A DNA stretch of 1,705 nt from Naegleria gruberi (lineage: Eukaryota), in assembly GCA_000004985.1 (NCBI GenBank), contig GG739344.1. One strand, written 5' to 3'. A program made the translations under genes and the position numbers. The notes under the pieces are model-generated. The model was not told the DNA's origin. It saw only the letters and a list, made by a program, of their open reading frames with translations, and did no database searches. Every line of letters starts with the position of its first letter. The stretch's first letter is position 1. Shown here in pieces: positions 15 through 1,705 of the stretch.

Positions 15-23
15 AAGGTAAGT
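15..23 (+). other. Perfect 5' splice donor consensus AAG|GTAAGT on the plus strand at the window edge
   Basis: Plus-strand aaggtaagt at 15-23. One plus-strand frame, ttg tgt gaa ata aag, is open from the window start up to it. This is compatible with the 3' end of a plus-strand exon lying mostly outside the window, converging on the minus-strand 69-227 segment. Confidence 0.15.
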
Positions 24-68
24 GATTGAATGGGCAGTAGTATTAAAATTACTTCCTTATTATCAAGT

Positions 69-227
69 TTAACATGGACGTCCTTTTCCTTCATTGAACA
101 CAAGATCTTTCCAATCCTCGAAATCTGCCAAAGTTAATTGATCTGGATTGAGAATAGTTTCTCTTGCAATGATCTGACATCGTACAATTGGCCAATCCTG
201 TACCAACAAAACTGTAAGGTTGTCTTG
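69..227 (-). CDS. Putative 3'-terminal coding exon with no in-frame ATG. Translation: QDNLTVLLVQDWPIVRCQIIARETILNPDQLTLADFEDWKDLVFNEGKGRPC*. Family not recognised.
   Basis: Fifty-two stop-free codons on the minus strand, bounded by TGA (rc of 229-231) and TAA (rc of 69-71). The translation is protein-like and non-repetitive. G1 enrichment is 17 of 35 G overall and 12 of 23 in the distal part. GC3 is about 29%. Candidate acceptor ttttgttggtacag| ends at 198 on the minus strand, so the exon would start at 197 (DWPIV...). Confidence 0.35.
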   Translation of the reverse strand, partial: QDNLTVLLVQDWPIVRCQIIARETILNPDQLTLADFEDWKDLVFNEGKGRPC

Positions 228-303
228 TCAACACTGGGGGTTCTGGTCTGTAAATGCAGTGATAGTCACTCTGGCGTTGACAAGCAAATTTGTTGACAAT
301 CAT
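91..303 (-). CDS. The ORF-track 70-aa ORF (MIVNKFACQ...RSCVQ). It is probably not the real reading frame.
   Basis: It overlaps the 69-227 segment in another frame. It shows no codon-position-1 G enrichment (4 of 12 G in its unique 5' part). Its 3' part translates as low-plausibility peptide (SRSINFGRFRGLERSCVQ), whereas the alternative frame gives LNPDQLTLADFEDWKDLVFNEGKGRPC. It is kept only because it is the sole ATG-ORF in the window. Confidence 0.12.
   Translation of the reverse strand: MIVNKFACQRQSDYHCIYRPEPPVLTRQPYSFVGTGLANCTMSDHCKRNYSQSRSINFGRFRGLERSCVQ
224..284. repeat. Inverted repeat of 9 bp, cttgtcaac at 224-232 and gttgacaag at 276-284, with a further gttgacaatc at 292-301 that recurs at 1675-1684
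   Basis: The inverted copies are exact reverse complements with a 43-nt spacer. The 10-mer gttgacaatc occurs twice in the window. Confidence 0.2.
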
Positions 304-778: not shown

Positions 779-1026
779 ATGTAAAAGTTGCTGCCTTCCT
801 AGTTCTCAACCATTACTCCACTCTTAGGATATTCTCATTGAAAGATCATTTTGTATCTTTGAAGCTGCTGACATTTCGGTCTGGAACTTGTTCTACTACT
901 AAAAATAAACATTTTATTCTAAGTTTGCTTATTTTGTTGGATTCATTGTATGTTGCTAGTGGTTGGGTAATAGACAGTGTAATAGTTGGTTTTTAGTTGG
1001 CTTTGTTCCTTCTCAACCCCATCCAC

Positions 1027-1095
1027 AACCATTCAGTTATTACATGGTAAACATTCAGTGACTATTCGGTGAACATTTAGTTTCTTTGCGGCTTT
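1027..1095. repeat. Degenerate tandem direct repeat, three units of about 23 bp
   Basis: Units are aaccattcagttattacatggtaa, aacattcagtgactattcggtgaa and acatttagtttctttgcggctttt. Unit 1 versus unit 2 match at about 17 of 23 positions and unit 2 versus unit 3 at about 14 of 23. The core is CATTCAGT / CATTCAGT / CATTTAGT at a 22-23 bp period. On the minus strand this reads CTRAATGKT x3, about 85-150 nt downstream of the putative stop at 1177. Confidence 0.35.
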
Positions 1096-1171
1096 TAGTG
1101 TGTTGGTATTTGACTGAAAGTTTCCCTTAATTTACCATTACAATTTTCATAATTTGAGTAAAACTGATTAA

Positions 1172-1177
1172 TTTATT
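1172..1177 (-). terminator. Polyadenylation signal AATAAA on the minus strand, overlapping the TAA stop
   Basis: Plus-strand tttatt at 1172-1177 is AATAAA on the minus strand, within gTAAATAAAtt directly following the stop codon of the 1177-1323 segment. Confidence 0.35.
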
Positions 1178-1323
1178 TACAATTGTTGTGCTTCTTCTGA
1201 GTCTGATTGACCATTATCTGAATAAAGATCTGCACCATCTGATTCCATATCAAGCAAATTAATTGCGTCTGCTGAAGGTTGTGTTGCTCTTGTCAGGTTT
1301 TTTGATCCAATCTTTAACAAGTG
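1177..1323 (-). CDS. Putative 3'-terminal coding segment in a different frame from 1259-1471, ending in an acidic Ser/Asp/Glu-rich tail. Translation: ...AINLLDMESDGADLYSDNGQSDSEEAQQL*
   Basis: A minus-strand frame is open from 1323 down to a TAA at 1177-1179 (plus-strand tta). From about 1258 down to 1180, 15 of 20 G residues lie at codon position 1 (GAT, GAA, GCA, GGT, GAC codons) and GC3 is about 20%. That is a strong coding periodicity. The upstream part of this frame (1323-1260) lacks the periodicity, and there the previous frame carries it instead. Confidence 0.4.
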   Translation of the reverse strand, partial: HLLKIGSKNLTRATQPSADAINLLDMESDGADLYSDNGQSDSEEAQQL

Positions 1324-1471
1324 TTAAAAAAACAACTTGTTCATCTTCTGCAACATAGCTCTGCAATGAAGAGAATTGACCATTGTTGGCTCTGACATGT
1401 TCTCTTGTTGGTGAAGAGGTAGAAGGTTGAATTTCTGTTGCTTGAATTGAGGATTGAACTCCTTCTATATA
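1259..1471 (-). CDS. Putative coding segment with no in-frame ATG, probably an internal or 5'-proximal exon. Translation: YIEGVQSSIQATEIQPSTSSPTREHVRANNGQFSSLQSYVAEDEQVVFLTLVKDWIKKPDKSNTTFSRRN*. Protein family not recognised.
   Basis: Seventy stop-free codons on the minus strand, bounded by TAA (reverse complement of 1472-1474) upstream and TAA (rc of 1259-1261) downstream. There is no Met codon, so the ORF track does not list it. About 19 of about 29 G residues fall at codon position 1 (chance expectation one third) and GC3 is about 26%. Both are typical of genuine coding sequence in an AT-rich genome. The last 15-20 codons lose this periodicity (see the frame-switch finding). Confidence 0.4.
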   Translation of the reverse strand, partial: YIEGVQSSIQATEIQPSTSSPTREHVRANNGQFSSLQSYVAEDEQVVFLTLVKDWIKKPDKSNTTFSRRN

Positions 1472-1494
1472 TTAGAAACTTCGACATTGGAATT

Positions 1495-1530
1495 CTTCTT
1501 TCTTTTTGGCTTCTCTTTTTTCTTTAATTC
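1495..1530 (-). promoter_or_regulatory. Purine-rich (GA/A-rich) leader on the minus strand, a polypyrimidine CT tract on the plus strand
   Basis: Plus-strand cttctttctttttggcttctcttttttctttaattc reads on the minus strand as gaattaaagaaaaaagagaagccaaaaagaaagaag, immediately 5' of the minus-strand ATG at 1485-1487. An A/G-rich leader of this kind is typical of 5'UTRs and upstream regions in AT-rich eukaryotes. Confidence 0.3.
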
Positions 1531-1569
1531 TATTAGACTCTTTAAAAGAACTCCACAGATTGCTGAATA

Positions 1570-1581
1570 TCTTACTGACAT
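1570..1581 (-). other. ATG-TCA followed by a consensus 5' splice donor GTAAGA on the minus strand (candidate micro first exon or 5'UTR intron donor)
   Basis: Minus strand reads ttaATGTCAGTAAGAtattcag. ATG is rc of 1579-1581 and GTAAGA is rc of 1570-1575, matching the eukaryotic GTRAGT donor consensus 79 nt downstream of the TATA box. A possible acceptor tttctaatatatag| at 1465-1478 would give a 111-nt A-rich intron, but the resulting frame does not match the periodicity-supported frame. Confidence 0.2.
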
Positions 1582-1659
1582 TAACAATAGCTCTAATTAA
1601 TTGTTGGAAAATAATTAATAAATAATTAAGGATAAACTTCACTTACAATACTTTGCACG

Positions 1660-1667
1660 TATTTATA
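1660..1667 (-). promoter_or_regulatory. TATA box TATAAATA on the minus strand
   Basis: Plus-strand tatttata at 1660-1667 is TATAAATA on the minus strand, a canonical eukaryotic TATA octamer. It lies 79 nt upstream of a minus-strand ATG (1579-1581) and about 175 nt upstream of the ATG at 1485-1487, with the right orientation and spacing for a core promoter of the minus-strand coding region. Confidence 0.3.
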
Positions 1668-1705
1668 TGTATCCGTTGACAATCCATTAACATGTTTTCT
1701 GAGCA

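What the first reader, a model, noticed from the sequence alone, without database searches (positions are those of the whole stretch)
69..303. The only listed ORF is probably the wrong frame; a start-less alternative frame encodes a better protein
The 70-aa ATG-ORF at 91-303 overlaps a 52-codon stop-free frame at 69-227. That alternative frame gives a non-repetitive, protein-like sequence (…IIARETILNPDQLTLADFEDWKDLVFNEGKGRPC*) and has G1 enrichment and low GC3. The listed ORF has neither. The lack of an ATG suggests a downstream exon of a spliced eukaryotic gene. A candidate acceptor ttttgttggtacag| ends at 198. A speculative 37-nt GT..AG intron at 198-234 would join the listed ORF's N-terminal 23 codons in phase to this exon, though the donor gtgttg is weak. 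This may be a second gene or a further exon relative to the 1177-1471 unit.
Basis: seen in the sequence. Interest (0 to 1): 0.5.

Follow-up and report, generated by a model that had tools for sequence, protein, structure and literature searches.

The report
Overlapping chance ORFs in Naegleria spacer
Two overlapping open reading frames lie in spacer DNA of the amoeba Naegleria, downstream of a broken copy of an orphan gene; the ATG-started one looks like chance, the start-less one has a codon-like base pattern but no relatives, no start and no convincing splice partner, so no real gene can be shown here.

Summary
In detail: both minus-strand frames, their translations, the AG at 198 and the in-phase 37-nt GT..AG all exist. 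The window is Naegleria DNA (35% GC). Its only homology-supported gene is a frame-disrupted copy of a multi-copy Naegleria gruberi orphan (NAEGRDRAFT_79192/80659) at 1177-1705(-). That gene's stop lies about 950 nt upstream of the finding.

Neither frame has any relative in 1.84 billion or 5.8 billion proteins, or in Pfam, PDB, PHROGs or the contig collections. Region 72-303 is the GC-richest, most stop-poor part of the window, and five of six frames are open there, so openness is no evidence.

The listed ATG ORF has no coding signature and is best read as chance. The alternative frame does show real codon-position asymmetry (G1 0.33, GC1-GC3 +0.27; about 0.002 per frame, about 0.01 family-wise), matching the verified gene. 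A small local codon model does not favour it.

The proposed intron is one of 32 equally in-phase GT..AG pairs. Its donor is weak, and it is shorter and less AT-rich than the verified 54-nt intron.

Verdict: most likely non-genic spacer (about 0.55). An unannotated orphan exon remains possible (about 0.3). Low interest.

The parts
69..227 (-). Alternative frame: 52 sense codons (72-227) plus TAA stop (69-71), with no ATG. It has a coding-like G1 and GC1-GC3 asymmetry, strongest at 86-205.
   Evidence: Translation. Composition. No homologue. AF2 single-sequence pLDDT 57.5 with two helices.
91..303 (-). Listed 70-aa ATG ORF. It has no coding signature and is best read as a chance ORF.
   Evidence: G1 0.20 and GC1-GC3 +0.04. 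No homologue. Not on record as a called gene. AF2 pLDDT 45.1.
198..234 (-). It exists and is in phase but is not credible as proposed.
   Evidence: it is one of 32 stop-free in-phase GT..AG pairs, none has a GTAAGT-like donor, and it is 59% A+T against 81% for the verified intron.
72..303 (.). Compositional island: highest GC in the window (0.405) and lowest stop-trinucleotide density on both strands (7.8 per 100 nt against 13.8 in the rest of the spacer). Five of six frames are open here.
   Evidence: No excess RNA structure on either strand. No Rfam or tRNA match.
225..299 (.). Cluster of three exact GTTGACAA motifs (225-232 minus, 276-283 plus, 292-299 plus). The first two form a 9-nt inverted repeat CTTGTCAAC/GTTGACAAG 43 nt apart.
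   Evidence: 4 copies in the window against 0.15 expected; motif-agnostic probability of any 8-mer reaching 3 or more copies within 80 nt is 0.029.
1177..1705 (-). Context: a frame-disrupted copy of the Naegleria gruberi orphan gene family NAEGRDRAFT_79192/80659/76782. It comprises the end of exon 1 (1647-1705), an intron (1593-1646) and exon 2 (1177-1592), and runs off the right edge of the window.
   Evidence: E 2e-44, 96% identity. tblastn shows the match switching between frames -1 and -2 four times, with in-frame stops.
1593..1646 (-). Verified 54-nt spliceosomal intron, att|GTAAGTGA...caattaattag|AGC, used as the local reference for Naegleria splice signals.
   Evidence: The junction ...YKYVQSI|SYCYV... 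in P0001 mapped on the window.
18..67 (+). Candidate 50-nt intron on the opposite strand: a perfect donor ataaag|GTAAGTGA and a pyrimidine-rich acceptor ttattatcaag|. It is a possible last intron of a convergent gene entering from the left edge.
   Evidence: the only 7/7 donor match on either strand; 70% A+T, and it begins with the same GTAAGTGA as the verified intron. This is inference only.

Best explanation
Window 69-303 is non-genic spacer DNA of a Naegleria genome. It lies about 950 nt downstream of the stop codon of a frame-disrupted copy of a multi-copy Naegleria orphan gene (1177-1705, minus strand). A convergent gene may enter from the left edge.

The segment is a small island that is GC-richer (40% against 34%) and therefore poor in stop codons. 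Five of its six reading frames stay open for 43-74 codons.

The 70-aa ATG ORF and the 52-codon start-less frame are two of those by-products. Neither is shown to be translated. The listed ORF is chance.

The alternative frame's codon-like G1/GC1 excess is then either a statistical outlier or the fossil of a former coding sequence. It is not evidence of a working exon.

Shown: the organism, the neighbouring gene and its stop, the absence of homologues, the island, and the non-uniqueness of the splice model. Inferred: that the region is not translated.
For: 1. Source and context. The only protein hit of an exhaustive phmmer search is N. gruberi NAEGRDRAFT_79192, matching 1180-1700(-). The paralogues end at the stop 1177-1179. 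The window's 35% GC equals the published N. gruberi value (PMC6125883).
2. No relative of either frame in any search:
   - word-indexed search of 5.8 billion proteins;
   - exhaustive search of 1.84 billion representatives;
   - six-frame screen of every open stretch of at least 25 aa in 1-1180;
   - Pfam, PDB and PHROGs;
   - metagenome, viral and genome contigs, where the single hit L002 is a bacterial permease sharing TLADFEDWK by chance;
   - phage and plasmid blastn;
   - exact DNA scans;
   - neither ORF is on record as a called gene.
3. Open-frame length is at chance. Region 72-303 has the lowest stop density of all sliding windows, and five of six frames are open.
4. No ATG in the alternative frame. 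There are 32 equally in-phase GT..AG joins, none with a consensus donor. No upstream open stretch has a coding signal.
5. A codon model from the verified gene scores the three minus frames equally (-0.23, -0.24, -0.23), within the null.
6. The neighbouring gene copy is itself frame-disrupted, so the locus looks decaying.
Against: - The alternative frame's G1 (0.33) and GC1-GC3 (+0.27) match the verified coding segments and exceed all 12 other non-genic open stretches in the window. The joint probability is about 0.002 per frame under local-composition nulls, about 0.01 family-wise.
- The island is also the GC maximum of the window, as exons tend to be in AT-rich genomes.
- AF2 gives a slightly better model, two helices at pLDDT about 60, for the alternative frame than for the listed ORF.
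- A 42-aa exon of a fast-evolving orphan would not be detectable across Naegleria species. The negative homology result is therefore really informative only about the annotated N. gruberi proteome.
- Small two-exon genes are often missed by annotation.
Confidence: 0.55

Rival explanations
1. The alternative frame (about 72-197 or 72-210, minus strand) is the 3'-terminal coding exon of an unannotated, lineage-restricted small Naegleria gene. It would be spliced to a short upstream exon through an AG at 198 or 211, and the listed ORF would simply be its out-of-frame shadow.
For: - Codon-position asymmetry at the level of the verified gene.
- GC maximum of the window.
- An acceptor-like pyrimidine-rich AG at 198.
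- AF2 helices begin right after that junction.
- Naegleria genomes are gene-dense with short introns (PMC6125883), and short orphan genes are easily missed.
Against: - No protein in any database contains it, including the annotated N. gruberi proteome that supplied the neighbour's paralogues.
- No in-frame ATG.
- No consensus donor within reach. The two score-5 donors between the exon and the neighbouring gene, at 653 and 1135, would need 456-nt or 938-nt introns and have no coding-like exon behind them.
- The codon model is neutral.
Confidence: 0.28
2. The alternative frame is a decayed partial duplicate of the C-terminal part of the neighbouring orphan gene (residues about 193-232 of NAEGRDRAFT_80659, LVKDW...DLYSDNGQ). 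It would be the remnant of an old tandem paralogue.
For: - Best Smith-Waterman score of 20 open stretches against the paralogue (35; permutation p 0.023).
- Both segments are C-terminal and acidic, and both are followed by a stop within 4-9 residues.
Against: - BLASTP finds no alignment at E up to 100.
- DNA similarity is at chance (p 0.28).
- A frameshift-tolerant collinear chain of the whole paralogue against 1-1176 is no better than shuffled DNA, shuffled protein or reversed protein (p 0.1-0.6).
- The apparent N-terminal matches at 768-923 are noise (p 0.26).
Confidence: 0.07
3. The listed 70-aa ATG ORF 91-303(-) is the real gene, a stand-alone small protein.
For: It has an ATG and a stop and is the longest ORF in the window.
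Against: - No codon-position asymmetry (G1 0.20, GC1-GC3 +0.04).
- Three open stretches of at least 70 codons are seen against 1.6 expected (p 0.23).
- No homologue and no gene call on record.
- AF2 pLDDT 45, mostly unstructured.
- The Cys/Arg/Ser-rich composition is typical of out-of-frame translation.
Confidence: 0.03
4. The island is a regulatory or 3'-end region rather than coding. One option is the 3' UTR or terminator zone of a convergent plus-strand gene whose last intron is 18-67. Another is a binding-site cluster marked by the three GTTGACAA motifs at 225-299. This is compatible with the best explanation and refines it.
For: - A perfect donor AAG|GTAAGTGA at 18 with an acceptor 50 nt on. 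It is the only 7/7 donor match in the window.
- GTTGACAA occurs 4 times against 0.15 expected, three of them within 75 nt.
Against: - The upstream exon lies outside the window and cannot be checked.
- The motif was found post hoc, and the motif-agnostic p is only 0.03.
- Neither idea explains the three-base periodicity on the minus strand.
Confidence: 0.07

Closest known systems
Chance ORFs in AT-rich eukaryotic intergenic DNA (out-of-frame or 'shadow' ORFs in locally stop-poor segments)
   Same: - Length is within chance expectation.
- Several overlapping frames are open at once.
- No homologues.
- No start codon in the better-looking frame.
- No credible splice partner.
   Different: One of the frames carries a G1/GC1 excess that random open frames of the same local composition reach only about 0.2% of the time.
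Naegleria gruberi hypothetical protein family NAEGRDRAFT_79192 / 80659 / 76782 (XP_002679016, XP_002674185, XP_002668307)
   Same: It lies on the same strand and in the same window. There is a weak C-terminal resemblance, LV(K/Q)DW followed by an acidic tail (p 0.02).
   Different: The family's ORF ends at 1177-1179. BLASTP, DNA and chain tests show no real relationship. The family has no Pfam domain and no relatives outside Naegleria.
Unannotated small ORF or microprotein genes with one short intron in protists
   Same: That size class is routinely missed by annotation pipelines.
   Different: There is no expression, conservation or homology evidence here. The donor is weak, and the 37-nt intron is well below the 54-nt local example and the roughly 80-nt median reported for N. 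lovaniensis.

Membership tests
Protein-coding exon of a real gene (alternative frame 72-197/227, minus strand) | Open reading frame longer than chance allows | tested here: not met
   8 stretches of at least 52 codons against 5.8 expected (p 0.2). Five of six frames are open in this stop-poor island.
Protein-coding exon of a real gene (alternative frame 72-197/227, minus strand) | Codon-position compositional asymmetry like known genes of the organism | tested here: met
   G1 0.33 and GC1-GC3 +0.27, equal to the verified gene segments. Joint p about 0.002 per frame and about 0.01 family-wise.
Protein-coding exon of a real gene (alternative frame 72-197/227, minus strand) | Codon usage like known genes of the organism | tested here: inconclusive
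   A model from 151 codons of the neighbouring gene scores all three minus frames alike (-0.23, -0.24 and -0.23; p 0.17-0.33). The training set is too small to be decisive.
Protein-coding exon of a real gene (alternative frame 72-197/227, minus strand) | Homologous proteins or an annotated gene model containing it | tested here: not met
   None. The one metagenome hit is a chance 9-mer in a bacterial permease.
Protein-coding exon of a real gene (alternative frame 72-197/227, minus strand) | Start codon, or a credible splice to an upstream coding exon | tested here: not met
   No ATG in the frame. 32 non-unique GT..AG joins, none with a consensus donor. No coding-like upstream stretch.
Protein-coding exon of a real gene (alternative frame 72-197/227, minus strand) | Transcription, splicing and translation evidence | not testable with these tools
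   No RNA-seq, EST or proteomic data are available here.
Protein-coding exon of a real gene (alternative frame 72-197/227, minus strand) | Purifying selection across copies or strains | not testable with these tools
   No second copy of 69-303 could be retrieved. L001 covers only 813-1406, and look-ups of the paralogues' loci failed.
Canonical Naegleria spliceosomal intron (proposed 198-234) | GT..AG termini joining two frames in phase | tested here: met
   although 31 other pairs do the same.
Canonical Naegleria spliceosomal intron (proposed 198-234) | Donor resembling GTAAGT, and length and A+T content like known introns | tested here: not met
   Donor GTGTTG; 37 nt; 59% A+T. The verified intron is GTAAGTGA, 54 nt and 81% A+T. 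The N. lovaniensis median is 80 bp (PMC6125883).
NAEGRDRAFT_79192/80659 orphan family (as an extra exon or a decayed paralogue) | Significant sequence similarity to family members | tested here: not met
   Permutation p 0.023 only. BLASTP finds nothing. DNA p 0.28. Chain p 0.1-0.6.
NAEGRDRAFT_79192/80659 orphan family (as an extra exon or a decayed paralogue) | Continuity with the family's reading frame (no stop in between) | tested here: not met
   All members end ...SEEAQQL* at 1177-1179, about 950 nt upstream.
Pfam Tox-ODYAM1 (PF15642) | Score above the gathering threshold | tested here: not met
   10.7 bits against a cutoff of 25, E 0.26.
Structured non-coding RNA | Rfam match, or folding energy beyond shuffles | tested here: not met
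   No Rfam or tRNA hit. z -0.34 and 0.00.

The most novel reading that the evidence does not exclude
The alternative frame is the terminal exon of a previously unannotated, Naegleria-specific small protein gene. It might be two-exon and about 45-65 aa, with an unusually short or non-consensus intron, and it would sit next to a decaying copy of a multi-copy orphan gene.
Probability: 0.25. Interest if true: 0.25.

Novelty: not a real feature. Interest (0 to 1): 0.12.

Why it matters
It matters little beyond annotation hygiene. If the alternative frame were a real exon, it would add one small orphan gene to Naegleria. It would also be another example of annotation pipelines missing short spliced genes.

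The practical lesson is methodological. In AT-rich protist DNA, a locally GC-richer, stop-poor patch opens several frames at once. An ATG ORF there is not evidence of a gene, and an in-phase GT..AG join between two overlapping frames is expected by chance (32 were available here).

Identifying the window as Naegleria, and finding the frame-disrupted multi-copy orphan gene beside the region, are useful context for the other findings in this window.

Tried and rejected
1. Homology for either frame. All of these were negative: word-indexed search, exhaustive search, six-frame screen, Pfam, PDB and PHROGs, and the contig collections.
2. The metagenome hit L002. Rejected as chance: it is an 811-aa bacterial ABC-type permease at 56% GC that shares TLADFEDWK, selected through an exact 8-mer seed.
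3. A second, diverged tandem paralogue of the neighbouring gene spanning about 960-69. Short collinear matches suggested it (LRIKC/IRIYC, DRNVSSFKD/DTAMSSCKD, SFNENILR/TFGETLFR). It was rejected because the chain statistic and the segment alignment are at chance.
4. The alternative frame as a duplicate of the neighbour's C-terminal exon. Only p 0.02 by permutation, and nothing by BLASTP or at the DNA level.
5. Retrieving paralogous or allelic genomic DNA, to test conservation in each frame. Exact look-ups of P0001, P0002, P0003 and four window ORFs failed. The only contig found, L001, is 510 nt and stops at window position 813.
6. Structured RNA. No Rfam or tRNA hit and no folding excess.
7. 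Prokaryotic, phage or plasmid origin. No blastn match.
8. A local codon-usage model. It was uninformative with only 151 training codons.
9. AF2 single-sequence models. Both had low confidence, so no fold search was run.

Full report
**Observation.** The finding concerns the minus strand. The ATG ORF is the only ORF of at least 60 aa in the window. The alternative frame has no ATG. The acceptor-like ttttgttggtacag| ends at 198. A GT at 234-233 gives a 37-nt GT..AG that joins the first 23 codons of the listed ORF in phase to DWPIV.... The quoted composition is right: G1 is 0.33 for the alternative frame against 0.20 for the listed ORF, and GC1/2/3 is 0.56/0.32/0.29 against 0.39/0.47/0.34.

**Where the window comes from.** One exhaustive phmmer search of 1.84 billion representative proteins used a concatenation of the alternative frame, the listed ORF and two frames of the 1177-1471 unit. 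It returned a single hit: Naegleria gruberi hypothetical protein NAEGRDRAFT_79192 (193 aa, 96% identity, E 2e-44). That hit matched only the 1177-1471 part of the query. Its 90% cluster holds two more annotated N. gruberi paralogues on other scaffolds (241 aa and 109 aa). It also holds a 47-aa ORF call, from an ENA metagenome contig, that is identical to window ORF 1177-1320. The family has no Pfam domain and no relatives outside its cluster. The window's 35% GC equals the published value for N. gruberi (PMC6125883).

**The neighbouring gene.** tblastn of the paralogues onto the window places the gene on the minus strand from the right edge to the stop at 1177-1179.
- The end of exon 1 is ...RKHVNGLSTDTYKYVQSI at 1647-1700.
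- A 54-nt intron, att|GTAAGTGA...aattag|AGC, lies at 1646-1593.
- Exon 2 follows the intron.
- In the window the match switches between frames -1 and -2 four times and meets in-frame stops (SYC-TAA at 1581-1583; TAA at 1472-1474). This copy is therefore frame-disrupted relative to the annotated paralogues.
- One of the shifts, near 1288, is shared with the independent metagenome contig L001.

The finding therefore lies about 950 nt downstream of a completed, probably decaying, orphan gene. It is not a further exon of it.

**Homology for the two frames.** Nothing was found in any of the following.
- Word-indexed search of 5.8 billion proteins: no candidate at all for the alternative peptide.
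- Exhaustive search: no hit to query positions 1-122.
- Concatenation of every stop-free stretch of at least 25 aa, in all six frames of 1-1180: no hit at E up to 0.01.
- Back-translated scans of viral, genome and metagenome contigs: one locus, L002. It is a 56% GC bacterial contig whose 811-aa permease contains TLADFEDWK, a seed-selected coincidence.
- Exact DNA scans and phage or plasmid blastn: empty.
- Neither ORF is on record as a called gene.

One caveat applies. For a 42-52-aa orphan peptide, cross-species detection within the deeply diverged genus is unlikely. The informative part of this negative result is therefore that no annotated N. gruberi protein contains it.

**Intrinsic evidence.**
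- Length is worthless. There are 8 open stretches of at least 52 codons against 5.8 expected (p 0.2).
- Region 72-303 has the highest GC of the window (0.405). It also has the lowest density of stop-type trinucleotides on both strands: 7.8 per 100 nt, against 13.8 in the rest of the spacer and 10.7 in the verified exon. Five of six frames are open for 43-74 codons around 190-227.
Against random open frames of 45-60 codons, G1 and GC1-GC3 each fall in the 0.7% tail, while GC3 alone does not (p 0.15).
- A frame plot shows that 86-205 in the alternative frame is the only place outside the verified gene with G1 of at least 0.3, GC1-GC3 of at least 0.25 and no stops.
- The joint probability is 0.0003-0.001 family-wise with the region background. 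It is 0.002 per frame with three local-composition nulls. I take about 0.01 after allowing for the five open frames. The thresholds are post hoc.
- The listed ORF, including its first 23 codons, shows no such signal.
- A codon log-odds model trained on the 151 verified codons of the neighbouring gene does not separate the three minus frames (-0.23, -0.24, -0.23) and lies within the null. It has low power.
- Single-sequence AF2 gives pLDDT 57.5 with two helices for the alternative peptide and 45.1 for the listed ORF. That is weak evidence.

**Splice model.** Joining the ATG frame to the alternative frame needs only a GT..AG whose length is 1 modulo 3. There are 32 such stop-free pairs of 20-300 nt, so the in-phase junction is expected by chance.
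- None of the 32 has a GTAAGT-like donor.
- The proposed intron is 37 nt and 59% A+T with donor GTGTTG. The verified local intron is 54 nt and 81% A+T with donor GTAAGTGA.
- The only score-5 donors between the exon and the neighbouring gene (653 and 1135) would need 456-nt or 938-nt introns. They have no coding-like exon behind them.

**Alternative ideas tested.**
- The alternative frame aligns weakly with the paralogues' C-terminus, LVKDW...DLYSDNGQ against LVQDW...DLVFNEGK. It is the best of 20 open stretches, with permutation p 0.023.
- BLASTP finds nothing, and DNA similarity is at chance.
- A frameshift-tolerant collinear chain of the whole paralogue against 1-1176 is no better than shuffled or reversed controls.
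- I therefore reject both a decayed tandem paralogue and a duplicated exon as supported explanations.
- There is no RNA-structure signal.

**Conclusion.**
- The listed ATG ORF is a chance ORF (confidence about 0.95).
- The alternative frame is not part of the neighbouring gene (about 0.85).
- Whether the alternative frame is or was coding cannot be settled here. Its codon-position asymmetry is real and moderately significant. Against that, it has no start, no credible splice partner, no homologue and no annotation, and it sits in a multi-frame-open compositional island beside a decaying gene copy.
- I commit to non-genic spacer with chance ORFs, possibly bearing a fossil coding imprint, at 0.55.
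- I keep an unannotated orphan terminal exon at about 0.28 and a decayed duplicate at 0.07.
- Either way this is an ordinary annotation question of low interest.

Noticed in passing
window 1177-1705 (-): A copy of the multi-copy Naegleria gruberi orphan gene family (NAEGRDRAFT_79192/80659/76782; no Pfam domain, no relatives outside the cluster). Relative to the annotated paralogues the window copy needs four frame switches and has in-frame stops (TAA at 1581-1583 and 1472-1474). All four switches fall in homopolymer or dinucleotide contexts, so it is either a pseudogene copy or carries indel errors.
   Followed up: partly
window 813-1406 versus L001 1-510: An ENA metagenome contig (ERZ929261, 510 nt) is 99% identical to window 1027-1406 and 95% identical to 813-915. 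In place of window 916-1026 (111 nt, including the tandem TAGTTGGCTTT x2 at 983-1004) it has 27 nt. It shares the frameshift near 1288, so at least that frameshift is not a sequencing artefact of the window.
   Followed up: partly
window 18-67 (+): A perfect splice-donor consensus ataaag|GTAAGTGA, the only 7/7 match on either strand and starting with the same eight bases as the verified intron. A pyrimidine-rich acceptor ttattatcaag| follows 50 nt downstream. This may be the last intron of a convergent plus-strand gene entering from the left edge. If so, its terminal exon or 3' UTR would overlap the finding in antisense.
   Followed up: partly
window 225-232 (-), 276-283 (+), 292-299 (+), 1675-1682 (+): The 8-mer GTTGACAA occurs four times against 0.15 expected. 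Three copies lie within 75 nt, just upstream of the alternative frame and inside the listed ORF. The first two form a 9-nt inverted repeat, CTTGTCAAC/GTTGACAAG, 43 nt apart. The motif-agnostic probability of such a cluster is about 0.03. It may be a binding-site cluster, or chance.
   Followed up: partly
window 72-303: A compositional island: GC 0.405 (the window maximum) and the lowest stop-trinucleotide density of any 232-nt sliding window (7.8 against a median of 13.0 per 100 nt). It leaves five of six frames open simultaneously.
   Followed up: yes
L002 2385-2426 (metagenome contig Ga0302177_10009376): A bacterial 811-aa ABC-type permease contains ...DPQQVTLADFEDWKRQ..., a 9-residue identity with the alternative peptide. 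It is a coincidence created by exact 8-mer seeding across 241 million contigs, not homology.
   Followed up: yes
window 1326-1332 and 1259-1323 (-): In the window copy, the frame carrying ...VKDWIKKPD runs on to a different, shorter C-terminus (KSNTTFSRRN*, stop 1259-1261). The acidic tail of the annotated paralogues (TRATQPSADAINLLDMESDG...QQL*) lies in the other frame because of a 2-nt difference near 1288.
   Followed up: partly
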